UHGV virus genome: UHGV-0351038
Direction: 5' to 3' (one strand)
Length of the DNA: 34,385 bases
From: a virus
Positions within the stretch are counted from its first letter, which is position 1. The number at the start of each line of letters is the position of its first letter. A program made the translations under genes and the position numbers. Below, piece by piece: positions 1 through 15,101 of this stretch. The notes below the pieces were generated by a model. That model was given only the letters and a program-made list of their open reading frames with translations, searched no databases and was not told where the DNA came from.

Positions 1-134
1 CGCCGCCGAGCGGGTTTTTTATTGCGGAATTAATTATGGACCGTTATTATTCTGCTCCCGGCCCTTTAGCTCAGTGGTGAGAGCGAGCGACTCATAATCG
101 CCAGGTCGCTGGTTCAAATCCAGCAAGGGCCACC
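1..134. repeat. Left copy of inverted repeat (terminator-like hairpin remnant + tRNA-Ile), reverse complement of 5389-5522
   Basis: Positions 1-62 are the exact reverse complement of 5461-5522 by manual comparison; tRNA body also matches; identity ends just after the tRNA 3' end (CCT here vs CCA in the other copy). Repeat reaches the window edge so true length is unknown. Confidence 0.85.
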
Positions 135-617: not shown

Positions 618-1028
618 ATGGCTCAGGTTGCCATTTTTAAACAAATATTCGATAAAGTGCGAAATAATTTAAACTATCACTGGTTTTATTCTGAACTAAA
701 ACGTCACAATGTTTCACATTACATTTACTATTTAGCCACAGAGAATATTCATCTTGTTCTTGAAAACGATAATACGGTTTTAATAAAAGGACAGGGTAAG
801 GTTGTAAATGTAAGATTTTCAAAAAATAAATGCCTTATAGAAGCCACCTTAAAAGGATTCAAATCAGGAGAGTTATCATTTTACGAATACAGGAAAAATC
901 TTGCTACAGCAGGGGTTTTCAGATGGATTACAAATATCCACGAAAACAAAAGGTATTACTATACCTTTGATAATTCATTACTCTTTACTGAGAACATTCA
1001 GAACACTACACAAATATTTCCGCACTAA
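618..1028 (+). CDS. DUF1398-family protein (YbcV-like), about 136 aa
   Basis: ORF 603-1028; second ATG at 618 has a GGAAGG RBS 7 nt upstream. Sequence ([14 protein letters not shown]...[20 protein letters not shown]) recalled as the YbcV family of DLP12-type prophages; lies convergent to the lysis genes as ybcV does. Confidence 0.6.
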
Positions 1029-1335
1029 ATCATAACGTCCGGTTTCTTCCGTGCCAGAACCGGACTCGCTGGCATGATGAAATATGTGTACCCGGTAACC
1101 CCGGTGTGCATCGTTTTTGATTATTCCCCCACACTTGTGCAGAAGGAGTTCCCCGTCAGGCTACAGTCATAATTAATGCAAGAGTACAGCGACGATACAG
1201 CGCACAGAAATAAATCAGGTATCCATTGACTTCACAAAGACGGTGCATAGCATCGACAGGAGTAATTGCGTAAATTGAACTCTTGGCACACTTTAGCCAC
1301 CGGCGAATCTTCAGCGGATTATCCTTGGCCGGTTT

Positions 1336-1800
1336 TTATCTGAGGCATTGCTCTCGAATGTATAGCTGTGCCCCTTCAAGTTGTTTTTGCATTATTATCA
1401 GTCGCGCTCTGAGGGTGAAATAATCCCGTTCAGCGGTGTCTGCCAGTCGGGGGGAGGCTGCATTATCCACGCCGGAGGCGGTGGTGGCTTCACGCACTGA
1501 CTGACAGACTGCTTTGATGTGCAACCGACGACGACCAGCGGCAACATCATCACGCAGAGCATCATTTTCAGCTTTCGCATCAGCTAACTCCTTCGTGTAT
1601 TTTGCATCGAGCGCAGCAACATCACGCTGACGCATCTGCATGTCAGTAATTGCCGCGTTCGCCAGCTTCAGTTCTCTGACATTTTTGTCGCGCTGGGCTT
1701 TGTAGGTAATGGCGTTATCACGGTAATGATTCAGCCACAGACTAAGCGCACCACAGGCCACCAGCAGGGCAATGATGACCACGCACAGTACGCGGTTCAT
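1336..1800 (-). CDS. Rz: Rz inner-membrane spanin subunit (i-spanin)
   Basis: 154 aa, N-terminal TM segment then coiled-coil periplasmic domain; directly downstream of the endolysin; contains an embedded +1-frame lipoprotein ORF. Confidence 0.85.
1398..1580 (-). CDS. Rz1: Rz1 outer-membrane lipoprotein spanin (o-spanin), embedded in Rz
   Basis: 60 aa, signal peptide with lipobox LVVVGC, proline-rich mature region ([15 protein letters not shown]); fully nested in Rz in another frame, the classic Rz/Rz1 arrangement. Confidence 0.8.
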
Positions 1801-2098
1801 TTCACCACCAGCGTATCTGACCGATGAAATAACCGGAGGCCATAATCACAAACACCAGCCAGATAAGAATGAACTTCCAGGTGGATAATTTTTCAGCCAT
1901 CACTCGAATCTCCCGAATCAGTTTGCTAAAATCAAACACACTTTCTCCTTTGACTTTTCCGGAGTCAGGAAACACAAAACCCCGCTTGGTGCCAACAAAC
2001 GGGGTTTTTACTTTTATTCACTTACGTTTCGCCACTTCGCAGGATTTCATGTTATCCGCCCGCGTGGCCATGCCTTATTTTTCAGCAAAATATTCTGC

Positions 2099-2632
2099 TT
2101 ATCTGTCGATACCCCAGCACGCCAGCGCGCTCTCCTGGTCACGACGGGATACCTGACCGTAGCAGTTGTTTGAACGAATACGGCAGTCTCTGCCACCGTC
2201 CTTAATCCACCAGCGAATCGCCTCACACGCTCCCCTGCGATCACCTGCATTAATTCGTTTGTAAAACGTCGACGGGAAACACTTACCGGGACCAATGTTG
2301 TACGGACAGAATGACGCGATCCCCGCTTTCTGGGGTTCGCTCAATGGCACTTTGATGTTTTTCTCCACCCATGCCAGCGCCTTATCACGCTCAATGGCGT
2401 TGACCTGGTCGCATTTTTCCTTCGACAGTTTCATACCGGGAAAAACGGGTTTTCCATCCACCATCGTGGCCCCCCGACAGATGGTCCAGTTGCCGGAACC
2501 ATCGCGGTATGCCGTTGTGTGGTTACCCTCTTTTTCGTCCAGAAACTGGTCAAGTATCTGAGGAGCAGACGCGCCTGCAGCAATCAGCGCCAGAACAGCA
2601 GCTGACAGGCCGTATTTGATTTTTACGCTCAT
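2099..2632 (-). CDS. SAR endolysin (phage lysozyme, GH24-like)
   Basis: 177 aa; N-terminal weakly hydrophobic Gly/Ala-rich segment (SAAVLALIAAGASAPQ) typical of a signal-anchor-release domain, followed by lysozyme-like domain; positioned between holin and Rz. Confidence 0.8.
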   Translation of the reverse strand: MSVKIKYGLSAAVLALIAAGASAPQILDQFLDEKEGNHTTAYRDGSGNWTICRGATMVDGKPVFPGMKLSKEKCDQVNAIERDKALAWVEKNIKVPLSEPQKAGIASFCPYNIGPGKCFPSTFYKRINAGDRRGACEAIRWWIKDGGRDCRIRSNNCYGQVSRRDQESALACWGIDR

Positions 2633-2725
2633 GGATATTTATCAGGATGCTACCAATGAAAGATACTGGAAAGCCAACTGCAAAAAGCTAACAACCTGTA
2701 ATCGAGTTATCAGAACTGTTAATTT

Positions 2726-2986
2726 TTATGGTATACCGCGCCTCTGAACAGGGGCGCGTTTCTGGCAACAGCTCGTCCCCTTCACATAACCCGGCAGCAA
2801 CATCCAGGAAGACCTGGCTGCTGCCTCATAAAACTCCAGCGCGGCACCTTCAACACGGTCCAGCGAGATGTCCAGGTCAAAAATTTCACCGTCAAAGCGT
2901 TTTTTGTCCCGTAACGCTAAAGTTACCGTAACTTTATTCTCAAAATTGCGGATCCCTTTCACAATCAGTTCATAGTTTTGAGTCAT
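2726..2986 (-). CDS. DUF1327-like small lysis-cassette protein (YdfR-like); C-terminus possibly altered
   Basis: 86 aa MTQNYELIVKGIRNFENKVTVTLALRDKKRFDGEIFDLD...; sits between holin and endolysin as ydfR does in Qin-type cassettes; the C-terminal 25 residues look unrelated, Cys/Arg-rich. Confidence 0.5.
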   Translation of the reverse strand: MTQNYELIVKGIRNFENKVTVTLALRDKKRFDGEIFDLDISLDRVEGAALEFYEAAARSSWMLLPGYVKGTSCCQKRAPVQRRGIP

Positions 2987-2990
2987 TGAA

Positions 2991-3206
2991 TTACTCTCCC
3001 CGTGCCGCCTTACGACGGTCCTCTCTGATTTTGAAATACAGGTTAGTCAGATATGTCAGCAGCCCAAACAGCAGACTCCCCAGCACGCCTATTGCCGCCC
3101 ACTGAGACGGGGAAACCCTGTCCAGCAACTGCAGGAACCAGTAGCCCGTTCCCACCGCTGACGTAGTGTATGACACACCTGTTGTGATTTTTTCCATCTG
3201 GTCCAT
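2991..3206 (-). CDS. Class II holin / pinholin (phage 21 S-like, 71 aa) with dual-start motif
   Basis: Track ORF 2991-3311 starts at a GTG; the in-frame MDQMEK start at 3206 gives a 71-aa protein with two TM segments and charged C-terminus ([13 protein letters not shown]). Met1 and Met4 form a dual-start motif. Pairs logically with the SAR endolysin. Confidence 0.75.
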
Positions 3207-3513
3207 ACCCCGTCTCCCATTATCCGGAAGCTGACAACAATAAAAAAGCCACCAGTTAACTACTGATGGCTCTGATAACTCATGCAAGCGTCTCAGACGA
3301 TCCACTGACACTATCGGTGAGTTTAACGATACCTTCCATTTGACTGGCTCACTTTTTATGATGATGCCGGTGCATTTATCTCCAGCACCAGACTTTCTAT
3401 CTCAACGCCATACGTTGCATTTTTGGTAATATCCGTCAGCGTCAGTGCATTTAGTCCCACTGCCAGACTGTCTTTTATGGCCTGGAATGCCGGGCCAGTA
3501 CGATGACGTAGTA

Positions 3514-3717
3514 TCACTCCGGCTCAGTTGCACCGCTGACCACCACATCACCTTCTGCTGCAATCGCCTGCATCAGGGTATAAGGGGTTATGGCCACCGG
3601 ACTACCAAACGGCTGCCAGCCCTCTTTCAGTTTATGTGTCAGCTTTTCCGCAAGATCTGACGGCGGCGCCGCCCTGACAACATCATAGTGTTTAAATGCC
3701 ATGGTTCTTTCCACCAT
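3514..3717 (-). CDS. DUF1737-family small prophage protein
   Basis: 67 aa MVERTMAFKHYDVVRAAPPSDLAEKL...; recalled as a conserved small protein upstream of holins in lambdoid prophages. Confidence 0.55.
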   Translation of the reverse strand: MVERTMAFKHYDVVRAAPPSDLAEKLTHKLKEGWQPFGSPVAITPYTLMQAIAAEGDVVVSGATEPE

Positions 3718-3962
3718 CTGAAAAATAATTCTTTAAAATGCCTGACATGTAATACAGAAAAAAACACAAAACCATACCTTAAATAAAAACCTGATTATCA
3801 AGCAGATATGCATGGATAAACTACAAGACGAGATATAAACCACCCTGTATTTAAATAAACAATAAACAACATCAGAAAAATAATTCTGCTCTATGGTTTA
3901 ATTCAAAAATATCATTTATACTTTTCAGAACATCACCAGCAAGGCATAAACAAGGAAAGTAA

Positions 3963-4298
3963 ATGAAGTGGATTGTGATTGATACAGTTATCCAGCCATC
4001 ATGCGGAATATCTTTTTCAGTCATATGGAGTAAAATAAAATTAATAATCTGGTATCAATCGGATGCTTTCTTACCTCCTGAAAGTATATTTACACTGACT
4101 CACACAGGCATCATGCTCAATAACAAAGTGCTGCCTGTAACCATTTACAACGTAGTACCATTCAATAAAACATTCTGGAATTTAATCAAAAACAGCCAGG
4201 AATGCCCTACAAATACAGATAACGTATTGAATGAATGCTTTAATAACCGTTGCACTCTGCAAATATGTCCTTATGGACTAAAACAACAAAGTCCATAA
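3963..4298 (+). CDS. Hypothetical protein (111 aa) in AT-rich cargo segment
   Basis: ATG preceded by AAGGAAAG RBS; Cys-containing, no recognisable family; lies antisense to the late operon in a visibly AT-rich stretch. Confidence 0.3.
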
Positions 4299-4314
4299 GG
4301 AGTTTACTCACATC

Positions 4315-4354
4315 TGACAAAATCAATATAAACAGCCCCTCCGGAGAGGGGCTG
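4315..4354 (-). terminator. Intrinsic terminator-like hairpin (9-bp stem CAGCCCCTC/GAGGGGCTG, loop CGGA) followed by U-rich tract on minus strand
   Basis: Perfect 9-bp inverted repeat at 4333-4354; on the minus strand it is followed by TTTATATTGATTTT. Confidence 0.45.
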
Positions 4355-4745
4355 GAGAGTGGCGCTATGTGCCATTGCATGGTGCCGGGTGCCTCCCGGT
4401 GAATTCAGTACCAGCACCTGAATCCGCGATTATCCCATATACCTACTCGCTGATTGCCCCACCGCACAGGGGGATTCACCATGCCAGTTTCTTTTAACAA
4501 ACTCCCCGCAAACCAGACAACAGTCAACCGCCTGAATTGTGAAGTATTTAAAAATTTCTCCCGCTAACTGATACCCGGCTAACAGTCTGGCGTTTTCTTT
4601 TTCAGCAACGGGAAAGCAACAACCACCACACCCGCCACCAGCACACCGTCAGCCAGCACTGACATTATCCGGCTGCTGCAATGCCATTCACAAAAACAGT
4701 AAGCAATCACTTTTTACCGTAACAGGTGATAATCCAGATATGTAT

Positions 4746-5099
4746 CTACCCCAGATGAGTAATCCGAAGTTCATCCATACCACAGGTCCTGGCTATTCTG
4801 TTGTACTCCTGAACAAGAGCAAATAATTCTGAATTAGCAACCATGAACTCATCGCAAACCCTCTGTATAGCATCACTATTCAGAATAATAACGTCTCTTC
4901 CCGAAAGACGATCAGGAGTACAGAACAAAACTGTCAAACGGCTGAAGGCCTTTGCTCGTGCTGCATTGACTATATCAATACGCTGCCTAAGGATGAAACA
5001 CCCCGACGCCTCATCAATATTCACTCTACCCACACCATATGAATGATAAATATTTAATGCTGAAAAAACCATTAGACCGTATAACAAATATTCAATCAA
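4746..5099 (-). CDS. Hypothetical protein (117 aa; start uncertain, TTG at 5099 or ATG 27 nt downstream)
   Basis: ORF only; AT-rich; no family recognised. Confidence 0.25.
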   Translation of the reverse strand: MIEYLLYGLMVFSALNIYHSYGVGRVNIDEASGCFILRQRIDIVNAARAKAFSRLTVLFCTPDRLSGRDVIILNSDAIQRVCDEFMVANSELFALVQEYNRIARTCGMDELRITHLG

Positions 5100-5209
5100 T
5101 ACTTAACAGAACTTTTATTTTTGACAAACATATAATATTTTCAACAATATCCTGAGCCAGGTATATTTCAGTATAAGGCTCTGCCGGAAGGAATCTGGAA
5201 GAATGAATA

Positions 5210-5286
5210 TGGCGCGCTGTACTGGATTCGAACCAGTGACCGATTGCTTAGAAGGCAATTGCTCTGTCCGGCTGAGCTAACAACGC
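5210..5286 (-). tRNA. tRNA-Arg, anticodon UCU (phage argN/argO-like)
   Basis: Reverse complement folds as tRNA: acceptor GCGTTGT / ACAGCGC, anticodon loop CTTCTAA, T-arm GGTTCGAATCC, CCA encoded. Confidence 0.8.
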
Positions 5287-5387
5287 TGAATACCGATAAT
5301 GGACCGCCATCGGGGACCCGCCCCCCGCACCAACAACCCTGTTATCGTGTCGTCTGCTCTTCCTGATAAGCTAATGGCGGTTTGTGA

Positions 5388-5463
5388 TGGTGGCCCTTGC
5401 TGGATTTGAACCAGCGACCTGGCGATTATGAGTCGCTCGCTCTCACCACTGAGCTAAAGGGCC
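5388..5463 (-). tRNA. tRNA-Ile2-like, anticodon CAU (phage ileZ-like); CCA encoded
   Basis: Reverse complement identical to the tRNA at 60-132 and continues into an encoded CCA; lies downstream of Q as in lambdoid late regions. Confidence 0.8.
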
Positions 5464-5522
5464 GGGAGCAGAATAATAACGGTCCATAATTAATTCCGCA
5501 ATAAAAAACCCGCTCGGCGGCG
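5389..5522. repeat. Right copy of inverted repeat (tRNA-Ile + terminator-like hairpin), reverse complement of 1-134
   Basis: See left copy; manual base-by-base comparison. Confidence 0.85.
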
Positions 5523-5525
5523 GGT
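5501..5525 (-). terminator. tR'-like intrinsic terminator between Q and the tRNAs
   Basis: Minus-strand RNA CCCGCCGCCGAGCGGG followed by TTTTTT; about 80 bp downstream of the Q stop. Confidence 0.45.
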
Positions 5526-5606
5526 TGTAGAAACTCTTCTAACGTCAGGCATAAAACGCCCATCATTATGACGAATTTACCACAGATTCCGGAAAAATCA
5601 ACCTTG

Positions 5607-6428
5607 TTACCTAGTTACCTTTTTTAACTGCCGCTCAGCCCATGCTTCTTCAATATCAAACCGGGTCACCAGCGCATCATAGAATTTCTTAACTGTTTTT
5701 TCCCATGACGCGCGTGTTATCTGGTTTGTCACCTCGCATATAGCATTAAATGCCTCCGTTGATGGTAGTCTTTCATAGCCACGACCACCACAACGCTGGC
5801 AGTCTCTGATAACAGGCATACCACGTTTTACCGACTCTTCACGATGAATGGCGACACCACGCCCACGGCAATCCTTACAGGCGGTGGAAACCTCACCCTT
5901 TCCGCCACACTCCGGACAGGCAACTTTTACCACCTCCCTGACTTTTTTCCATTCTTCCCAGTAAGACGGATACACACCTTTCGTACACTTTGCCCATACC
6001 GGCGGCTTACCATCCGGATACTGGACCTTGTTTGTAAAAACTACGCTTTCAATAAATTTTTCCCCATAGCAACAAGGGCACTGCTTTTTACTCGCTGCGC
6101 TGCGGGCATAATCCTCAAAAGCGTACGAAGCCATAATGCGCATCACTAACGGTTTTATTTCTGCCGGAAGTTTTCTCAACGCCGCCACACGATCGCACCG
6201 ACTGAGTGCATAATCTGCCAGTAATTCTGTTGCCCGCGCCCTGTCATTCATACTGATGCCCATTTTCCCCAGGAACGCAGAAAACCCCATCTCAGCCCGA
6301 TTCTGTGTCATGCCCTGCGCGGCCATCACATCAGTGATACTCAGCGCATCTTTTGACGTTGAGGCCGATACATCGGTCAGGCCAGGGGATTTTGGGGAGT
6401 AGTATTTCGGTAAATCTTCCAGTTTCAT
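5607..6428 (-). CDS. Late-gene antiterminator Q (phage 82 / Qin QuuQ-like)
   Basis: 273 aa with multiple CxxC zinc-finger motifs (CPCCYGEKF, CPECGGKG, CKDCRGRG, CQRCGGRG); located between rusA and the tR'/tRNA/lysis region. Confidence 0.8.
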   Translation of the reverse strand: MKLEDLPKYYSPKSPGLTDVSASTSKDALSITDVMAAQGMTQNRAEMGFSAFLGKMGISMNDRARATELLADYALSRCDRVAALRKLPAEIKPLVMRIMASYAFEDYARSAASKKQCPCCYGEKFIESVVFTNKVQYPDGKPPVWAKCTKGVYPSYWEEWKKVREVVKVACPECGGKGEVSTACKDCRGRGVAIHREESVKRGMPVIRDCQRCGGRGYERLPSTEAFNAICEVTNQITRASWEKTVKKFYDALVTRFDIEEAWAERQLKKVTR

Positions 6429-6799
6429 TTTTTGACCTGCTCTTCATGCATTATGGGGTAAATCTTCACCCCCATACGTCCACCAGATACTGGCTGACCA
6501 CGAACGATATTGATTTCATCAAACTGCTCATCGTCCATTAACACTCCCGCATGCGTCAGCGCATCCAGCGGTGCTTTCAGGATATTGTCCAGGTCGCGAC
6601 GACGCTTATCCGGTGGCTCTGCAATCACCTTTATCGCCAGCCTTCCGGACAGGCTTAATTTCAGCCGCTGCTGGCGAACAATAAGCGCCACAGCCCGGCG
6701 ATAACGCTTTCCCTCCTCCGAGATAAAATATGTGCTGCCACGGCGTCGCCAGTAAGTGTTCACCGTCGGCGGGTAAGGTAAAACCAAATCTATGAGCAT
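6425..6799 (-). CDS. rusA: RusA-family Holliday junction resolvase
   Basis: 124 aa MLIDLVLPYPPTVNTYW...DLDNILKAPLDALTHAGVLMDDEQ, matching recalled RusA catalytic-region features; 4-bp overlap with Q. Confidence 0.85.
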   Translation of the reverse strand: MLIDLVLPYPPTVNTYWRRRGSTYFISEEGKRYRRAVALIVRQQRLKLSLSGRLAIKVIAEPPDKRRRDLDNILKAPLDALTHAGVLMDDEQFDEINIVRGQPVSGGRMGVKIYPIMHEEQVKK

Positions 6800-6811
6800 C
6801 AGTCACCTCTT

Positions 6812-7861
6812 TTACCCAAGCACGCCAGTTGCAAAGGCGTGATCAAGAAAACGAAAAATTAAATCAACCTGAGAACCATGCTTTTGTTCGAACGCCAGAG
6901 GATCCGCATGAAGCTCGTTGTGATGCTCCCGACACAGCGGTAGCGTGAAAATATCGTGAGATTTTGTCCCCATTCCGCCCTGACCATGACCAATCAGGTG
7001 ATGGGGATCGTCGGCTGGCTTACCACAACACGCACACGGCTGTGTCTTCACCCAGCGTGTGTATTTCTCGTTAACCCAGCGGCGACGTTTAGGTCGTTTC
7101 ATGAAAGATTCCGGAGACTCAGGATCAACGGCAATGCTGACCACCGTCTTTTCCTGTGGTGGGTTCTGTTGCTGGTGGGCGTGAGGCAGCGGCGCAATAT
7201 TTTTTGTGCGCTGTTTCAGTATGCTGGTGGCTGTCTGCTCTCCCGGTATGATGTCGCTCTCGCGGTAAAGCGAGCGGATTTTCTCCGCCGGTAATCCCAG
7301 TGAGCGGCGTAATACAGCCTCCGGTAGTGCGTCCGCTACCTGATTGCAGACCGCCCACCAGGATAATTCAGCCAGAGATAATTCACGCTCCTGCGTACCG
7401 CTTATTGCGTGACCGATGACGTCAATCATCCATGCTGACAGGTTTTGATGAGCAAGTTGCTCGAGTGATTCGGATGTCTGGTCACGCAGCTGGTTGTCGC
7501 AGTGCCAGCACAACACCATTGCGCCGGTACCATAACGGTGAATGACGGTTTCGCTGTGATGATAATCGCCGTGTGGCCACTGGCAGGATTTAACATGGCG
7601 CAGTAACCAGTCAGACAATGCGCCAGCGCCACCAGCAGCACGAATCACTCGTTCGTCGCTGAAAAATGGCAGTAATGATTTATCCTCCGCCAGCGGCTGG
7701 CGAACGGCAGGAACGACCCCGGACGGCAGATTACGCATGGTTTTCGGTTCCGGCTCCACCAGTACCCGGGTATTGTGGAATACCGGCATGGATTCACTGC
7801 CCGGCTTAACGATCACCAGCCCGAGTTCCGGTACCAGAACAGGTCGAAGTAATACCCGCAC
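6812..7861 (-). CDS. DUF968-family protein (YdfU-like) with C-terminal HNH-like zinc-binding motif
   Basis: 349 aa; C-terminus CACCGKPADDPHHLIGHGQGG...CREHHNELH; start is GTG at 7861, so N-terminus uncertain. Confidence 0.65.
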   Translation of the reverse strand: MRVLLRPVLVPELGLVIVKPGSESMPVFHNTRVLVEPEPKTMRNLPSGVVPAVRQPLAEDKSLLPFFSDERVIRAAGGAGALSDWLLRHVKSCQWPHGDYHHSETVIHRYGTGAMVLCWHCDNQLRDQTSESLEQLAHQNLSAWMIDVIGHAISGTQERELSLAELSWWAVCNQVADALPEAVLRRSLGLPAEKIRSLYRESDIIPGEQTATSILKQRTKNIAPLPHAHQQQNPPQEKTVVSIAVDPESPESFMKRPKRRRWVNEKYTRWVKTQPCACCGKPADDPHHLIGHGQGGMGTKSHDIFTLPLCREHHNELHADPLAFEQKHGSQVDLIFRFLDHAFATGVLG

Positions 7862-8675: not shown

Positions 8676-8831
8676 TTACTCCTCAGGTTCGTAAGCTGTG
8701 AAGACAGCGACCTCCGTCTGGCCGGTTCGGATTCGTACCTCGCAGAGGTCTTTCCTCGTTACCAGTGCCGTCACTATGACGGTTAAACAGATGACGATCA
8801 GGGCGATTAACATCGCCTTTTGCTGCTTCAT
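8676..8831 (-). CDS. hok: Hok/Gef-family type I toxin (51 aa); the longer overlapping frame (to 8888) is mok-like
   Basis: MKQQKAMLIALIVICLTVIVTALVTRKDLCEVRIRTGQTEVAVFTAYEPEE: single TM helix and conserved C-terminal pattern of Hok toxins; track ORF 8676-8888 extends upstream as expected for mok. Confidence 0.8.
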   Translation of the reverse strand: MKQQKAMLIALIVICLTVIVTALVTRKDLCEVRIRTGQTEVAVFTAYEPEE

Positions 8832-9295
8832 AGCCTGCTTCTCCTTGCCTTTCGGCACGTAAGAGGCTAACCTACATGTGTCTAGCATGAAATTGGCCTC
8901 AGATTAATGTTAAGCGTCTTGCAGGACGCGTAATGTTAACTGGGGCTTTTCTCTATCTGCCGTTGGTGTTATGCCCGAGGCAGATAGCCTCAAGCACCCG
9001 CAGCCATTCTACTTAACTACCGTTACCTCGCCAATGTGAAATCAGTCAGAAAGGCGATCCATAAGAACAATAGCAAGACAATAAATCGCCATTACAGCCG
9101 TAATAGCCAGCGCACATTTGAGAACCAGCACCACAACCTCCTGTATTGGACGTACACCAGTCCTGATGAATATGAGGCTGTCTCGTCAGTGATTCAATAC
9201 AACTATTGGGTATAGTTTCTCTGATTTTTTCTGTGGAAATGGGGCTCAACCACTAGTCATTTAATACGCAAAGTCCGATACAAGCTAACCTTCTA

Positions 9296-9319
9296 GTCCG
9301 CTTTGAGCGAAAAGCGGAC
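9296..9319. repeat. Hairpin GTCCGCTTT-GAGCG-AAAGCGGAC downstream of the HAD gene; related to hairpin at 10761-10786
   Basis: 9-bp perfect inverted repeat; shares GTCCGCTT / AAGCGGAC arms with the hairpin upstream of the Nudix gene; no U-tract on either strand. Confidence 0.5.
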
Positions 9320-9379
9320 GTTGGAAGTTTAAAACTCGCGAACTACTCAGCGTCCATTGATGCGTATTGTGTAACGTGA

Positions 9380-10024
9380 TTAACCACAGATGATATTGAA
9401 ACGTTCTCCGGAAATCTTGACCATAATGTCAGACAGTTCGCTGACGGCATGGGCTTCAGATGATCCCAGAGCGTCAGGCTGAACAGCTATTACCGAAGCT
9501 CCACTTGCCAGCCCTGCTTTTATACCCGCAGATGCATCCTCAAATACCACGCATTCACCAGGCTCAAGGCCCAAAGCCAAAGCTGCTTTGATGTAACCCT
9601 CGGGACTTGGTTTTCCCGTCATTACATCTTCTGCACACACCATTACTATGGGTAAGGGGAGATTAGCCGCTTTCATCCTGTTTTCTGCAAGCATTCTGCC
9701 TGCAGAAGTGACAAGTGCCCAGCTATCCGGTGGCAGTTTTGATAAGAGTGCAGCGGCCCCTTTTACTTCAGTAACGCCTTCTGTCATGTTGATTTCAACC
9801 TCTTCGAGTGAGGCCGCGATTTTATTGGTTTTCTCACCTGCACCAATAAAATGCGTCAGTGTATCAATCGTTTGCCGCCCGTGTGCGTAAGCAATCACAG
9901 CCTGAGTATCAAGACCGTATTCTGCACAAAAATCTCTCCAGACGCTTTCCACTACGGCTGTTGAATCAACCAGCGTACCGTCCATATCGAATAAAAAACC
10001 CTTAGCGTTGAATATCATTGCCAT
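9380..10024 (-). CDS. HAD-superfamily (subfamily IA-like) phosphatase, sugar-phosphatase-like
   Basis: 214 aa; motif I FDMDGTLVDS, later conserved T/S and K, and the acidic motif ...FEDASAGIKAG...; overall resembles YfbT/YniC-type sugar phosphatases. Confidence 0.75.
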   Translation of the reverse strand: MAMIFNAKGFLFDMDGTLVDSTAVVESVWRDFCAEYGLDTQAVIAYAHGRQTIDTLTHFIGAGEKTNKIAASLEEVEINMTEGVTEVKGAAALLSKLPPDSWALVTSAGRMLAENRMKAANLPLPIVMVCAEDVMTGKPSPEGYIKAALALGLEPGECVVFEDASAGIKAGLASGASVIAVQPDALGSSEAHAVSELSDIMVKISGERFNIICG

Positions 10025-10047
10025 TCCTTAATGGTTGCAGAAGAAAG

Positions 10048-10686
10048 TTAATCAAACCATGTTTTTTCATCACCTTTCGCTACTCTCAGGCTGACAGCAA
10101 TCTGCTCAGGCACAATTCTTGAAAGCGACAATTCAGGCAGGTCGTTGACATCAAAAAAATCAGCATCGAGTGACTCATGGCTGATTGACAGGCTGCCACC
10201 TACTTCTTCACAGAGAAAAATCAGCTTGTAAACATGCCAGGGTAAAGGCGGATGGCCGTGAAGATTACGATCCCAAACTCCCAATAGTTTAGTCACTCTG
10301 ACTTTTAATCCGGTTTCTTCTTCGACTTCTCGACGCACAGCTTCAGAAGGTGTATCTCCAACATCTGCCCATCCGCCAGGAAGACTCCATAATCCATCTG
10401 CAGCCTCTTTCACCATCAGAATACGATTATTACGCAGGATAAACGCACGCACATCTGTTTTGGGCGTCGCGTAACCCGTTTCCGATACATGAAACAAATC
10501 ATTGCGGCTAATATCAAACTGCGAACTCAGCAGTCCAGCGGCAATTTCACGCAAGGCTTCATAGCGTTCCTTGTCAAAGACGTCTTTTGAATAGGTCAGG
10601 CCTGACTGCGCGAGGGCCTTTAGTCTCTGGGCAACAAAAATAAGCTTTTCTTGGGTCAACACTTCAGACATGTTTTTCATCTTCAT
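10048..10686 (-). CDS. Nudix hydrolase with N-terminal extension domain
   Basis: 212 aa; Nudix box GGWADVGDTPSEAVRREVEEETGL (GX5EX7REUXEEXGU) at residues about 104-127, preceded by an about 80-aa N-terminal domain; 23-bp gap to the HAD gene, so probably one operon. Confidence 0.8.
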   Translation of the reverse strand: MKMKNMSEVLTQEKLIFVAQRLKALAQSGLTYSKDVFDKERYEALREIAAGLLSSQFDISRNDLFHVSETGYATPKTDVRAFILRNNRILMVKEAADGLWSLPGGWADVGDTPSEAVRREVEEETGLKVRVTKLLGVWDRNLHGHPPLPWHVYKLIFLCEEVGGSLSISHESLDADFFDVNDLPELSLSRIVPEQIAVSLRVAKGDEKTWFD

Positions 10687-10760
10687 TTATGTATTCAGAG
10701 TTCCTGTTAAGGATACTGCTCAATTCAATGAAGAATAACAAATGCATCTGGCACCTGCTA

Positions 10761-10786
10761 TGTCCGCTTCTGGCACAAAGCGGACA
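10761..10786. repeat. Hairpin TGTCCGCT-(10 nt)-AGCGGACA upstream of the Nudix gene; related to hairpin at 9296-9319
   Basis: 8-bp inverted repeat sharing sequence with the hairpin downstream of the HAD gene. Confidence 0.5.
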
Positions 10787-10882: not shown

Positions 10883-11284
10883 TTATCCCTGATAAAATGC
10901 CAGTATGCGCTGCATAACTTCACTCATCCGGCACTCGCGACAGATTATGTTTAGGCGACTGTCGTAGCGACGTATTTCTCCATCAGGTAACGACCAGATA
11001 AGGTCCGGATCAACCACAGCTGTTTTCTTCACCTTTGCCCTCGATAGTTTTTTGCGGGCGTTTTGCCAGTCCTTACGCGCCTGTTCAGACGGGAATAACC
11101 CGTAGCCGGAGTTGTATACATCGCCACTGGCTACCAGCTCTCTGGCAAGAACGCTCATCAGATATCTAGTCGCACCTGTTTTAGCTTCCAGTTGCCGTAA
11201 CGTCTCACGACCGCTCTGGCGCACGAGTTCCACCACCTGCCCTTTAATTTTTTCCCGCTCTTCTTGTGTAAAAACTTTTGCCAC
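10883..11284 (-). CDS. Hypothetical protein (133 aa), possible winged-helix DNA-binding fold
   Basis: GTG start with strong AAGGGGGA RBS; no family recognised. Confidence 0.45.
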   Translation of the reverse strand: MAKVFTQEEREKIKGQVVELVRQSGRETLRQLEAKTGATRYLMSVLARELVASGDVYNSGYGLFPSEQARKDWQNARKKLSRAKVKKTAVVDPDLIWSLPDGEIRRYDSRLNIICRECRMSEVMQRILAFYQG

Positions 11285-14558: not shown

Positions 14559-15101
14559 ATTAATAACTCTCTACTGTAAGGGTATTAAAATGCTATCACA
14601 GACTCTCGCTGTAGGGGTATAGCCGAGACCACCGAGCCTGAAGTGGTAAAAAGACAGGCACACAACACGAAAGCGCACGGCGAGGCTGTTAGTTCATAAA
14701 TGGTCTGTCGTTAAATTTTCGTCGACCGTGCGCTTCCGGTTGTGGCAATCCGCGAAATGGCGCGGCGGTAAGTATGGCGGGGTTATTCCTTCCCCGTTGA
14801 GGACACCGGGTTGTCAGGTTGACCATACGCTTAAGTGACAACCCCGCTGCAGCGCCCTCTGTTATCAATTTTCTGGTGACGTTTGGCGGTATCAGTTTTA
14901 CTCCGTGACTGCTCTGCCGCCCTTTTTAAAGTGAATTTTGTGATGCGGTGAATGCGGCTGAGCGCACGCGGAACAGTTAAAACCGAAAACTGTGTTATGG
15001 GTGGATTCTCTGTATCCGGCGTTAATTGTTAACTGGTTAACGTCACCTGGAGGCACCAGGCACCGCATCAACAAAGTTCATTTGTAAAAATGGAGATAAT
15101 T

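What the first reader, a model, noticed from the sequence alone, without database searches (positions are those of the whole stretch)
9296..10786. Nudix + HAD hydrolase two-gene cassette bracketed by related hairpins in the early-right operon
A Nudix hydrolase with an about 80-aa N-terminal extension (Nudix box GGWADVGDTPSEAVRREVEEETGL) and a HAD-IA phosphatase (FDMDGTLVDS) sit 23 bp apart, between the hok toxin locus and the replication genes. Qin-type prophages are recalled to carry relBE-like modules at this position. Both ends carry hairpins with the same arms (GTCCGCTT...AAGCGGAC at 10761-10786 and 9296-9319), neither with a U-tract, which looks like an inserted cassette rather than ordinary terminators. 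Together the two enzymes could hydrolyse a nucleoside-diphosphate-X compound to nucleoside, sugar and phosphate (for example ADP-ribose to AMP + ribose-5-P, then ribose). That would suit a counter-defence or signal-degrading role, or nucleotide detoxification; the function is inference only.
Basis: partly seen in the sequence, partly recalled or inferred. Interest (0 to 1): 0.7.

Follow-up and report, generated by a model that had tools for sequence, protein, structure and literature searches.

The report
Swappable Nudix–HAD prophage cassette between hairpins
Two small-molecule hydrolase genes sit as an exchangeable cargo module in a variable slot of an E. coli prophage, and the two hairpins at its ends are the exact recombination joints at which phages, plasmids and genomic islands swap such modules; what the enzymes do for the phage or host is unknown.

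Summary
A Nudix gene (10048-10686, minus strand) and a HAD-IA phosphatase gene (9380-10024, minus) lie 23 bp apart. They are bracketed by two 24-bp palindromes, at 9296-9319 and 10762-10785, with identical 8-bp arms, 8-bp loops and no U-tract.

The "inserted cassette" reading is strongly supported. Qin/Rac-type prophages carry at least 10 alternative cargos between the same two sites, including HEPN, RelA/SpoT, DUF4209 and SIR2 proteins. The identical Nudix-HAD cassette occurs in five unrelated flanks, including the G/FI "Z region" of P2-like phages. In every case homology breaks inside the hairpin: the outer arm stays with the flank and the inner arm goes with the cargo.

GenBank records of the P2 Z region already annotate these sequences as left and right inverted repeats, so the joints are not new. 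The palindrome family is REP-like and widespread in Proteobacteria, but low-copy in E. coli.

The Nudix is a CDP-Chase/UDP-X-diphosphatase family member, so CDP-X or UDP-X substrates are likelier than ADP-ribose. A 83-90% identical GGACT-Nudix-HAD unit lies in DNA without phage genes, apparently Erwiniaceae. A counter-defence role is untested and unsupported.

The parts
10762..10785 (.). R-type palindromic junction site, GTCCGCTT|CTGGCACA|AAGCGGAC. The inner arm (10762-10769) travels with the cargo. The outer arm (10778-10785) stays with the DUF977-side flank.
   Evidence: The same outer arm plus flank is found with seven or more different cargos. The same inner arm plus cargo is found in five flanks.
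10687..10761 (-). 75-nt leader between the R site and the Nudix start codon. It has no convincing sigma-70 promoter and is homologous to the leader of a solitary Nudix cassette (L014).
10048..10686 (-). Nudix pyrophosphohydrolase of the CDP-Chase/UDP-X diphosphatase subfamily: an N-terminal helical Nudix_N domain followed by the Nudix fold.
   Evidence: 3Q1P E 7e-50, 3O8S 4e-42, 4HFQ 2e-37; family motifs; phrog_25541.
9380..10024 (-). HAD-IA phosphatase, nearest to sugar/polyol-phosphate phosphatases. RefSeq starts it at 10018.
   Evidence: PRK11587 188 bits, cut-off 282; 2QLT glycerol-3-phosphatase, E 2e-22.
9296..9319 (.). L-type palindromic junction site, GTCCGCTT|TGAGCGAA|AAGCGGAC. The outer arm (9296-9303) stays with the hokD-side flank. 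The inner arm (9312-9319) travels with the cargo. It is an inverted copy of the R site (3 mismatches in 24).
   Evidence: (I1).
10883..11284 (-). DUF977 gene, the conserved right-hand flank of the variable slot.
8676..8999 (-). hokD toxin gene and sok RNA region, the conserved left-hand flank of the variable slot.

Best explanation
The region is one cargo cassette occupying a cargo-exchange hotspot of a Rac/Qin-type lambdoid prophage. The two hairpins are inverted copies of a REP-like palindromic unit with 8-bp arms (up to 11 bp with flanking bases) around an asymmetric 8-bp centre.

Shown: exchange with other replicons happens inside these units, so each cargo brings its own inner half-sites and each recipient keeps its outer half-sites. 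The same cassette has moved in this way between lambdoid prophages, the G/FI Z region of P2-like phages, a prophage remnant, an integrase island and a further viral contig.

Inferred (about 50% likely): the joints act as portable micro-homology between arrays in which such palindromes separate genes, with phage or host recombination functions doing the exchange. A dedicated site-specific recombinase or HUH enzyme acting on the palindrome is about 35% likely.

Inferred from family membership: the Nudix enzyme splits a nucleoside-diphosphate-X compound, most likely a CDP- or UDP-linked alcohol or sugar, into NMP and phospho-X. The co-transcribed HAD phosphatase then removes the phosphate from phospho-X.

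Inferred origin: the pair was captured from accessory DNA without phage genes, apparently Erwiniaceae. Its benefit in the phage is unknown.
For: Cassette and junctions
- The full cassette with these flanks occurs in only 18-19 of 5426 complete E. coli genomes.
- The same flanks carry many other cargos: HEPN, a 195-aa and a 257-aa protein, DUF4209, RelA/SpoT, MFS+GGCT+LysR and BCCT+DUF2254 between the two sites; SIR2, QueH and an alpha/beta hydrolase in diverged versions of the slot.
- Across seven Qin-type loci the outer arms are invariant (GTCCGCTT and AAGCGGAC). The inner arms and the adjacent loop bases change with the cargo.
- The 99-100% identical cassette in five flanks keeps its inner arms while the outer arms change: GTCTGCTT/GAGCGGAC in P2; GTCTGTTA/GAGCAGAC; GTCTGCTA/AAGCAGAA; CTCCGCTG/AAGCGGAC.

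Prior description
- GenBank AJ512685 and AJ512677 (P2 "Z-region") annotate left and right inverted repeats whose cargo-proximal 24 nt are these sites.

REP-like family
- Contigs L014, L154 and L155 show runs of units bounded by the same sites, with paired sites 9-18 bp apart between units. Klebsiella locus L130 has one such pair, 18 bp apart.
- The family is multi-copy and intergenic in Alphaproteobacteria.
- It is low-copy in E. coli.
- The prophage encodes a RecE-like exonuclease.

Enzymes
-.

Origin
-.
Against: - No recombination was observed directly; junction mapping is comparative.
- The identity shared between partner sites is only about 14-24 bp, which is short for homologous exchange.
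- The fixed 8-bp centre, the degenerate arms and the cross-phylum conservation would also fit a recombinase core site.
- No promoter was found for the cassette, so expression in the lysogen is unknown.
- Substrate class rests on about 50% identity to two characterised Gram-positive enzymes. The HAD misses the YfbT equivalog cut-off.
- The replicon type and species of contigs L154 and L155 are inferred from one neighbouring gene.
Confidence: 0.6

Rival explanations
1. The hairpins are core sites of a dedicated recombination system: a tyrosine-type recombinase, or a HUH/RAYT-like enzyme acting on the folded palindrome. Cassettes are swapped by paired L x L and R x R site-specific events, in the manner of recombinase-mediated cassette exchange with heterospecific spacers.
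For: - The centre is strictly 8 bp in every site found.
- The loops are conserved and asymmetric while the arms are degenerate.
- The two sites are inverted.
- All informative junctions fall in or next to the loop.
- The sites occur on phages, plasmids and islands.
- The arms are identical across phyla.
- The 2004 P2 study is titled "Site-specific recombination links..." (cited; its records).
Against: - No recombinase gene is consistently next to the sites.
- There is no resemblance to dif/cer/psi, attC or lox-type sequences (comparison from my own knowledge).
- Multi-copy intergenic distribution in some genomes looks like REP elements.
- No empty single-site product was found in 5426 E. coli genomes.
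Confidence: 0.35
2. The cassette is a prophage-encoded anti-phage or lysogenic-conversion module. By destroying a nucleotide-sugar or CDP-alcohol pool (for example UDP-glucose), it would alter the surface receptor or prevent modification of the DNA of invading phages.
For: - The same slots hold Shedu SduA (E 9e-163), PDC-S33, PDC-S39 and SIR2-like proteins.
- They also hold HEPN proteins, and relBE lies next to a site in K-12.
- The P2 Z region and the old/tin locus are described as variable loci that include anti-phage genes (PMC9122126).
- Family members hydrolyse UDP-glucose and UDP-MurNAc (PMC3655063).
Against: - PADLOC gives only a weak, domain-level hit for the Nudix (PDC-S07, 6.6e-10) and nothing for the HAD.
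- The slots also carry plainly metabolic cargos such as MFS+GGCT+LysR, BCCT+DUF2254 and QueH.
- Close homologues sit among ordinary genes.
- No promoter was detected.
- No literature on such a mechanism was found.
Confidence: 0.2
3. One reading: a counter-defence or signal-degrading pair that removes ADP-ribose-type products or cADPR-type immune signals for the benefit of the phage.
For: - The chemistry is generically possible for Nudix plus phosphatase.
- Phage Nudix enzymes take part in NAD+/ADPR conflicts (PMC9503650 and 10.1101/2024.02.11.579819, listed but not read in detail).
Against: - ADP-ribose, NAD and NudE models score 19-28 bits against cut-offs of 158-449.
- The subfamily signature is CDP-Chase/UDP-Xase.
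- The cassette is rare (about 0.4% of genomes).
- Its homologues are in contexts without phage genes.
Confidence: 0.08
4. The pair is a hitch-hiking house-cleaning or salvage operon with no phage-related role. It was captured simply because it lay between two palindromes in the donor genome.
For: - Solitary orthologues (66-74% identical among the named hits) are ordinary chromosomal genes in Cedecea, Pseudescherichia, Leclercia and Pantoea.
- The GGACT-Nudix-HAD unit sits among metabolic genes.
- A decayed copy lies in phage 11W and an internally deleted HAD in strain B4103-1. Both suggest weak selection.
Against: - The cassette is 99-100% conserved across five contexts and about 30 genomes or contigs.
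- The Nudix-HAD pairing is kept in three lineages at 72-100% identity.
Confidence: 0.3

Closest known systems
Inverted-repeat-flanked foreign ORFs at the P2 "TO/Z" region (Nilsson, Karlsson and Haggard-Ljungquist 2004, Mol Biol Evol 21:1; GenBank AJ512677 and AJ512685)
   Same: The cargo-proximal 24 nt of the annotated left and right inverted repeats are the R-type and L-type sites found here. The very same Nudix-HAD cassette sits at that P2 locus in Peduovirus P24C9 and phage 10W.
   Different: Here the sites bracket a slot between DUF977 and hokD in a lambdoid prophage, with unrelated outer flanks.
B. cereus CDP-Chase (PDB 3Q1P) and S. pneumoniae UDP-X diphosphatase SP_1669 (PDB 4HFQ)
   Same: Full-length similarity (E 7e-50 and 2e-37), the same two-domain build, and all published subfamily motifs.
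   Different: The family was described as confined to Gram-positive bacteria (PMC3655063). This member is from Enterobacterales, is phage-borne and is paired with a HAD phosphatase. Its substrate is untested.
E. coli sugar phosphatase YfbT/HxpA (NCBIfam PRK11587) and yeast glycerol-3-phosphatase Gpp1 (PDB 2QLT)
   Same: HAD-IA fold and catalytic motifs. These are the best family and structure matches.
   Different: The score is below the equivalog cut-off (188 against 282 bits). The nearest relatives beyond the cassette lineage (contig homologues down to about 57%) are Actinobacterial sugar phosphatases at about 50-58% identity.
Acinetobacter pdif modules (gene modules between inversely oriented XerC/XerD sites)
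   Same: Modules are bounded by inverted short palindromic sites, and the half-site next to the module travels with it (comparison from my own knowledge).
   Different: The site sequence is unrelated to dif-type sites, and there is no evidence for Xer involvement.
REP/BIME/REPIN elements
   Same: Short extragenic palindromes. Inverted pairs 9-18 bp apart lie between genes (L014, L130, L154, L155). The elements are multi-copy in some alphaproteobacterial genomes.
   Different: In E. coli they are low-copy and confined to mobile DNA. The arms are identical across phyla. No associated RAYT gene was examined.
Defence hotspots of P2/P4 and other prophages (Rousset et al. 2022, PMC9122126)
   Same: A fixed position in a phage genome with high cargo turnover, including defence genes.
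   Different: That study's hotspots lie next to cos, and its authors speculate about cos-end recombination. Here the joints are defined palindromes.

Membership tests
CDP-Chase / UDP-X diphosphatase Nudix subfamily (PMC3655063) | Length 200-210 aa with an N-terminal helical domain carrying G-U-x-ar-x2-D-x-ar-D-x-[ED]-R-ar | tested here: met
   212 aa; GLTYSKDVFDKERY at residues 29-42; Nudix_N PF12535 E 7.6e-18.
CDP-Chase / UDP-X diphosphatase Nudix subfamily (PMC3655063) | Hinge motif, LPxLS motif and the variant Nudix box GxWx[ED]Ux2[ST]x2Ex3KEUxEExGU | tested here: met
   SETGY, LPELS and GGWADVGDTPSEAVRREVEEETGL are present, with K replaced by R at one position. Alignment to 3Q1P covers query residues 19-204.
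CDP-Chase / UDP-X diphosphatase Nudix subfamily (PMC3655063) | Asymmetric homodimer; hydrolysis of CDP-choline or UDP-X; 3'-5' RNA exonuclease activity | not testable with these tools
   Needs the purified protein.
ADP-ribose / NAD pyrophosphatases (NudF, NudE, NudC) | Score above the NCBIfam equivalog cut-offs | tested here: not met
   NudE 19 bits against 169; NAD diphosphatase 27.9 against 158.
HAD-IA phosphatases | Motif I DxDGT, motif II T/S, motif III K and motif IV acidic pair, with HAD_2/TIGR01509 scores above cut-off | tested here: met
   FDMDGT, VTSAG, GKPSPE and FEDASAG in the translation. HAD_2 80.5 bits against 23.8. TIGR01509 58.9 against 29.4.
YfbT/HxpA sugar phosphatase equivalog (PRK11587) | Score at or above 282 bits | tested here: not met
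   188.3 bits. It resembles the family but is not the equivalog.
P2 Z-region inverted-repeat-flanked cassettes | Cargo bounded by the annotated left and right inverted repeats, with the palindrome at the cargo-proximal end | tested here: met
   AJ512685 92-115 and 1255-1278, and AJ512677 92-115 and 1616-1639, are R- and L-type sites at the inner ends of the annotated repeats. The same cassette is present in P24C9.
P2 Z-region inverted-repeat-flanked cassettes | Location between tail genes G and FI, with the longer 90-113-bp repeats (AATCTGACAG...) | tested here: not met
   In the window the sites lie in a lambdoid early-right region and the sequence outside the 24 bp is unrelated.
Integron gene cassettes | attC of 57-141 bp with R''-L''/L'-R' boxes, GTTRRRY crossover and an IntI integrase nearby | tested here: not met
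   The sites are 24-30 bp simple palindromes, junctions are in the loop, and the only integrase is the prophage Int about 8 kb away. The attC criteria are from my own knowledge.
Xer/dif (pdif) modules | 28-bp site with an 11-6-11 XerC/XerD consensus | tested here: not met
   The sequence GTCCGCTT-N8-AAGCGGAC does not resemble dif, cer or psi (consensus from my own knowledge). Only the inverted-site architecture is shared.
REP/REPIN elements | Short extragenic palindromes arranged as inverted pairs | tested here: met
   Inverted site pairs 9-18 bp apart in L014, L130, L154 and L155. Intergenic position in L074.
REP/REPIN elements | High copy number in the host genome | tested here: inconclusive
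   In E. coli the median is 1 and the maximum 5-7 copies. There are six copies in 8 kb of a Hyphomicrobiales MAG and many contigs per Pseudolabrys MAG. No whole-genome counts were made.
REP/REPIN elements | A cognate RAYT (Y1 transposase) gene flanked by the repeats | not tested
Intrinsic terminators | GC-rich hairpin followed by a U-tract | tested here: not met
   There is no T-run after either hairpin on either strand, and neither is listed by the terminator scan.
Known or candidate anti-phage defence systems (PADLOC 2.0) | A significant full-length match to a system model | tested here: not met
   The Nudix has only PDC-S07 at 6.6e-10 over the Nudix domain. The HAD has no hit.

The most novel reading that the evidence does not exclude
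The GTCCGCTT-N8-AAGCGGAC palindromes define a widespread cassette-exchange system that is independent of integrons. Paired, inverted, heterospecific sites would be acted on by a still unidentified enzyme, shuffling accessory and defence genes among lambdoid phages, P2-like phages, plasmids, islands and chromosomal cassette arrays across Proteobacteria. Within it, the Nudix-HAD pair would be a new kind of defence or conversion module that works by destroying a CDP- or UDP-linked metabolite.
Probability: 0.15. Interest if true: 0.85.

Novelty: new member of a known kind. Interest (0 to 1): 0.55.

Why it matters
Prophage cargo slots are where new anti-phage and conversion genes keep being found, but how cargos get in and out is mostly unexplained. 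Here the joints can be read to within a few bases. They are shared by lambdoid prophages, P2-like phages, plasmids and islands.

That gives a concrete sequence tag for finding cargo slots in genomes. It also gives a substrate for testing the exchange mechanism at the bench.

The Nudix-HAD pair itself is a defined two-enzyme candidate whose substrate class can be tested directly. If it acts on nucleotide-sugars it would point to metabolite depletion as a conversion or defence strategy. If it is only a passenger, that shows these slots also traffic ordinary metabolic genes.

Tried and rejected
- Terminator reading of the hairpins: rejected, because there is no U-tract and the scan does not list them.
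- Curated RNA family: nothing in Rfam for hairpin-bearing loci or at the hairpins in the window.
- Integron attC and Xer/dif sites: rejected on size, sequence and junction position.
- Transposon with terminal inverted repeats: rejected, because the outer half of each palindrome changes with the flank while the 99%-identical cargo keeps only the inner half.
- Literature search for the palindrome sequence: no relevant paper.
- Nilsson et al. 2004 and the P2 review (Christie and Calendar 2016): could not be opened. Citing papers give no detail on the repeats.
- A gene family recurrently next to the sites in 120 genomic loci: only an ABC substrate-binding family typical of those genomes; no recombinase.
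- An empty slot with a single hybrid site in 5426 E. coli genomes: none. The closest is strain A20, with 223 bp of non-coding DNA between the sites.
- Plasmid copies of the cassette: none.
- Alternative cargos in the high-GC viral contigs with a 1513-bp cassette: all contigs were the same element, so this was uninformative.
- Literature on Nudix-based nucleotide-sugar depletion as phage defence: none found.
Full report
**1. What is in the window**

The window is a Rac/Qin-type lambdoid prophage integrated next to rspB/ynfA. It is 100% identical over the stretches compared to E. coli AR_0017. Its genes run on the minus strand.

Reading in the direction of early-right transcription, the order is: cro-like, YdaT, replication protein O, DUF977 (10883-11284), R hairpin (10762-10785), Nudix (10048-10686), HAD (9380-10024), L hairpin (9296-9319), sok/hokD (8999-8676), rem, DUF968, RusA, Q, tRNAs, lysis genes, terminase.

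- The Nudix protein has an N-terminal Nudix_N domain.
- The HAD protein carries DxDGT.
- The gap between the two genes is 23 bp.
- The two hairpins have identical 8-bp arms and 8-bp loops. They are the only two such matches in 34 kb, against none in 100 shuffles.
- Both fold stably.
- Neither has a U-tract.

**2. The hairpins are the joints of a cargo slot**

Only 18-19 of 5426 complete E. coli genomes have this cassette in these flanks. The flanks themselves are common and carry other cargos:
- Between the same two sites: a HEPN protein, a 195-aa and a 257-aa protein, DUF4209, a RelA/SpoT protein, and a double load of MFS+GGCT+LysR and BCCT+DUF2254.
- In diverged versions of the slot, where at most a degraded site is recognisable: SIR2, QueH with a methyltransferase, and an alpha/beta hydrolase.

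In K-12, relBE lies next to hokD.

Site-by-site comparison gives two complementary patterns.

*Same flank, different cargo.* In the Qin-type flank the left site is always GTCCGCTT-TGAGC..., and what follows changes with the cargo: AAGCGGAC, CAACGGAA, AAGCAGGA, GAGCGGAC, AAACAGCC, GAGCGGAA, CTGTGGAA. The right site always ends ...ACA-AAGCGGAC, and its inner arm and first loop bases change with the cargo: GTCCGCTT-C, GTCCGCTT-T, GTCTGCTC-CTGGT, GTCCGCTG-T.

*Same cargo, different flank.* The 99-100% identical Nudix-HAD cassette occurs in five flanks:
- the Qin-type slot;
- the G/FI interval of P2-like phages P24C9 and 10W;
- a prophage remnant beside paoD;
- an integrase island;
- viral contig L252.

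In all five it keeps its inner arms (AAGCGGAC and GTCCGCTT). The outer arms differ: GTCTGCTT/GAGCGGAC, GTCTGTTA/GAGCAGAC, GTCTGCTA/AAGCAGAA, CTCCGCTG/AAGCGGAC.

The exchange points therefore lie inside the palindromes, within or next to the 8-bp centre. This excludes a transposon-type element, in which both full repeats would move together.

The two sites are best described as inverted copies of one asymmetric unit, since L on the plus strand and R on the minus strand differ at 3 of 24 positions.

**3. This was seen before in P2**

Two GenBank records titled "proviral Z-region" are annotated with a left and a right inverted repeat. They are AJ512685 (P2-EC67) and AJ512677 (P2-EC31).

The cargo-proximal 24 nt of those features are R-type and L-type sites. 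[quoted passage not shown]

I could not open that paper. Rousset et al. 2022 cite it as describing a variable P2 locus that includes anti-phage genes. A Yersinia P2-like phage lacks both repeats and cargo entirely.

The joints are therefore a known kind of feature. What I add:
- the same sites define a slot in lambdoid prophages;
- they occur on plasmids and islands;
- they separate successive units in array-like stretches (section 4);
- they belong to a much wider family (section 4).

**4. What the palindrome family looks like**

In E. coli the sites are low-copy. The R-type is in 3588 of 5426 genomes (median 1, maximum 7 copies). The L-type is in 2563 genomes (median 1, maximum 5). Some copies are on plasmids, and nearly all lie in unannotated intergenic DNA.

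Three metagenome contigs show runs of gene units bounded by R and L sites, with paired sites 9-18 bp apart between units (L014, L154, L155). A Klebsiella spallanzanii contig (L130) has one such pair, 18 bp apart. A Pantoea contig has two R sites 3.6 kb apart.

Most hits had conserved loops (TGGGTCAA and its reverse complement, TGTGCCAA, TTGGCACA) and AT flanks. They came from Alpha-, Beta- and Gammaproteobacteria and a few other phyla, often several per contig and in intergenic positions.

A viral-contig scan was dominated by the E. coli-type loops. It also showed a different two-gene cassette between the same arms in high-GC contigs.

In 156 distinct sites, arm positions 1-7 are complementary in 107-147 cases. 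Position 4 shows C-G in 107, T-A in 3, and the mixed C-A or T-G in 31. That is what exchange between C-type and T-type sites would produce.

There is no Rfam family for the element. No recombinase is recurrently adjacent to it.

This is REP/REPIN-like behaviour. The fixed 8-bp centre and the cross-phylum identity of the arms would equally suit a protein recognition site.

I put portable micro-homology at about 0.5. The prophage encodes a RecE-like exonuclease, and relaxed recombination by phage recombinases is documented in PMC3945230 (listed, not read). I put a dedicated enzyme at about 0.35.

**5. The two enzymes**

*Nudix.* It aligns over its full length with B. cereus 3Q1P (E 7e-50), S. 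suis 3O8S (E 4e-42) and S. pneumoniae 4HFQ (E 2e-37). PMC3655063 describes 4HFQ as a UDP-X diphosphatase active on UDP-glucose, UDP-MurNAc and UDP-MurNAc-L-Ala. It describes the structurally similar B. cereus CDP-Chase as a CDP-choline pyrophosphatase. That 3Q1P is the CDP-Chase structure is from my own knowledge. Both enzymes also have 3'-5' RNA exonuclease activity. The paper lists subfamily motifs, and all of them are present here (sequence). ADP-ribose, NAD and MutT models are far below cut-off.

*HAD.* It has all four HAD motifs. It is closest to the YfbT/HxpA sugar phosphatase (188 bits, cut-off 282) and to yeast glycerol-3-phosphatase.

*Inferred pathway.* NDP-X is split into NMP and phospho-X, and phospho-X is then split into X and phosphate. 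X is most likely an alcohol or sugar attached to CDP or UDP.

*Pairing.* The Nudix-HAD pairing recurs at 100%, at about 89%/84% and at 80%/72% protein identity. This supports a functional link between the two genes.

**6. Origin and role**

Solitary orthologues are ordinary chromosomal genes in Cedecea and Pseudescherichia, where I checked the gene neighbourhood. Further hits at 66-74% identity come from Leclercia, Pantoea and relatives.

The nearest relatives of the pair form a GGACT-Nudix-HAD unit, itself bounded by R and L sites. It lies among UbiD, LysR, AraC, MFS and GGDEF genes, in contigs whose UbiD is 90% identical to Pantoea/Erwiniaceae proteins.

The E. coli cassette looks composite. 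Its R site, leader and Nudix resemble a solitary Nudix cassette (L014, 78% DNA identity). From just upstream of the Nudix start codon through HAD to the L site it resembles the three-gene unit (85%).

Other cargos in the same slots include Shedu (SduA, E 9e-163), PDC-S33, PDC-S39 and SIR2-like proteins. They also include transporters and QueH. Guilt by association is therefore weak.

PADLOC does not recognise the pair. PHROGs lists the Nudix family as of unknown function and the HAD family only as a generic HAD-superfamily hydrolase. No promoter was detected. A decayed copy (phage 11W) and an internally deleted copy exist.

**7. Verdict**

- The cassette-at-hairpins interpretation is confirmed and sharpened.
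- The biochemical example (ADP-ribose) and the proposed biological role are not supported.
- The joints were already annotated in P2, so the finding is a new member of a known kind: a new cargo, and a new (lambdoid) host slot for known repeats.
- Unexplained: the same palindrome family appears from E. coli phages to soil Alphaproteobacteria.

Noticed in passing
L013 (E. coli K-12 J53, Qin) 4939-4962 and 5930-5953: In K-12 Qin the ydfV-flxA segment is bracketed by an R-like site (inside the annotated ydfV ORF, just upstream of relB) and an L-like site. Both are flipped relative to the window's arrangement, which suggests an inverted cassette or a rearranged slot.
   Followed up: partly
L144 (NZ_OZ547136.1) 938-7700; L143 (plasmid pB18271_2) 4003-7699: One Qin-type slot holds two cassettes in series: L [MFS+GGCT+LysR] R [DUF2254+BCCT transporter] R. 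The DUF2254+BCCT cassette, with its own T-type inner arms, is also on a plasmid next to relB.
   Followed up: partly
L151 (AJ512677, P2-EC31 Z region) 321-1409: The "putative lysogenic conversion protein" between the same inverted repeats is a Shedu SduA homologue (PADLOC E 9e-163). The DUF4209 and RelA/SpoT cargos in Qin-type slots match candidate systems PDC-S39 and PDC-S33.
   Followed up: partly
L096, L074, L035, L121 and other genome-contig loci: Soil Alphaproteobacteria (Pseudolabrys, Hyphomicrobiales MAGs) carry many intergenic copies of the same palindrome, (A)AT-GTCCGCTT-TGGGTCAA or TGTGCCAA-(A/T)AGCGGAC-AT, singly and in pairs. One 8-kb stretch holds six. I found no description of this repeat family.
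   Followed up: partly
L160 2224-3760 (IMG/VR contig, high GC) and at least 7 near-identical contigs: A different two-gene cassette (217 aa + 149 aa, sites 1513 bp apart) is flanked by ATGTCCGCTTCTGGCCGGAAGCGGACAT and GGTCCGCTTCTGACCGAAAGCGGACAT. These are the same arms in an unrelated phage background.
   Followed up: partly
L155 2976-7481; L154 3875-5756; L014 4190-8008: In contigs without phage genes, successive gene units are each bounded by R- and L-type sites, with paired sites 9-18 bp apart between units. The units are GGACT-Nudix-HAD, a 105-aa gene with dCache-GGDEF, and LysR-SDR. L155's UbiD is closest to Pantoea/Erwiniaceae. The layout resembles a cassette array without an integron.
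   Followed up: partly
L280 (E. coli A20) 466-736: A nearly empty slot: L and R sites separated by 223 bp of non-coding DNA. No genome of 5426 had the two flanks joined through a single site.
   Followed up: yes
window 60-134 (+) and 5388-5463 (-): There are two tRNA genes with a CAT anticodon and equal Rfam scores, in opposite orientation about 5.3 kb apart. RefSeq annotates the second as tRNA-Ile. The first lies between the DNA-packaging gene nohD and ylcI and is not annotated in the identical RefSeq record.
   Followed up: no
window 14871-14922 (+), 4324-4513 (-), 8826-8999 (-): Rfam finds DicF RNA, the sRNA STnc100 and the sok antitoxin RNA in the prophage. A sieB-like exclusion gene and a truncated dicB lie near DicF.
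   Followed up: no
L016 5558-8291 (ENA metagenome contig): A more distant Nudix-HAD pair (80%/72% identity) lies directly beside a PF12835/PF12834 tyrosine recombinase and a second phage-type integrase, without any hairpin sites. The pair may therefore move by another route as well.
   Followed up: no
L145 4003-4026 and L146 4001-4024: An R-type site lies about 150 bp upstream of yeeP-like GTPase genes of CP4-44-type islands. In L146 it is followed by the same TGTCAGATTA flank as in the P2 Z region.
   Followed up: no
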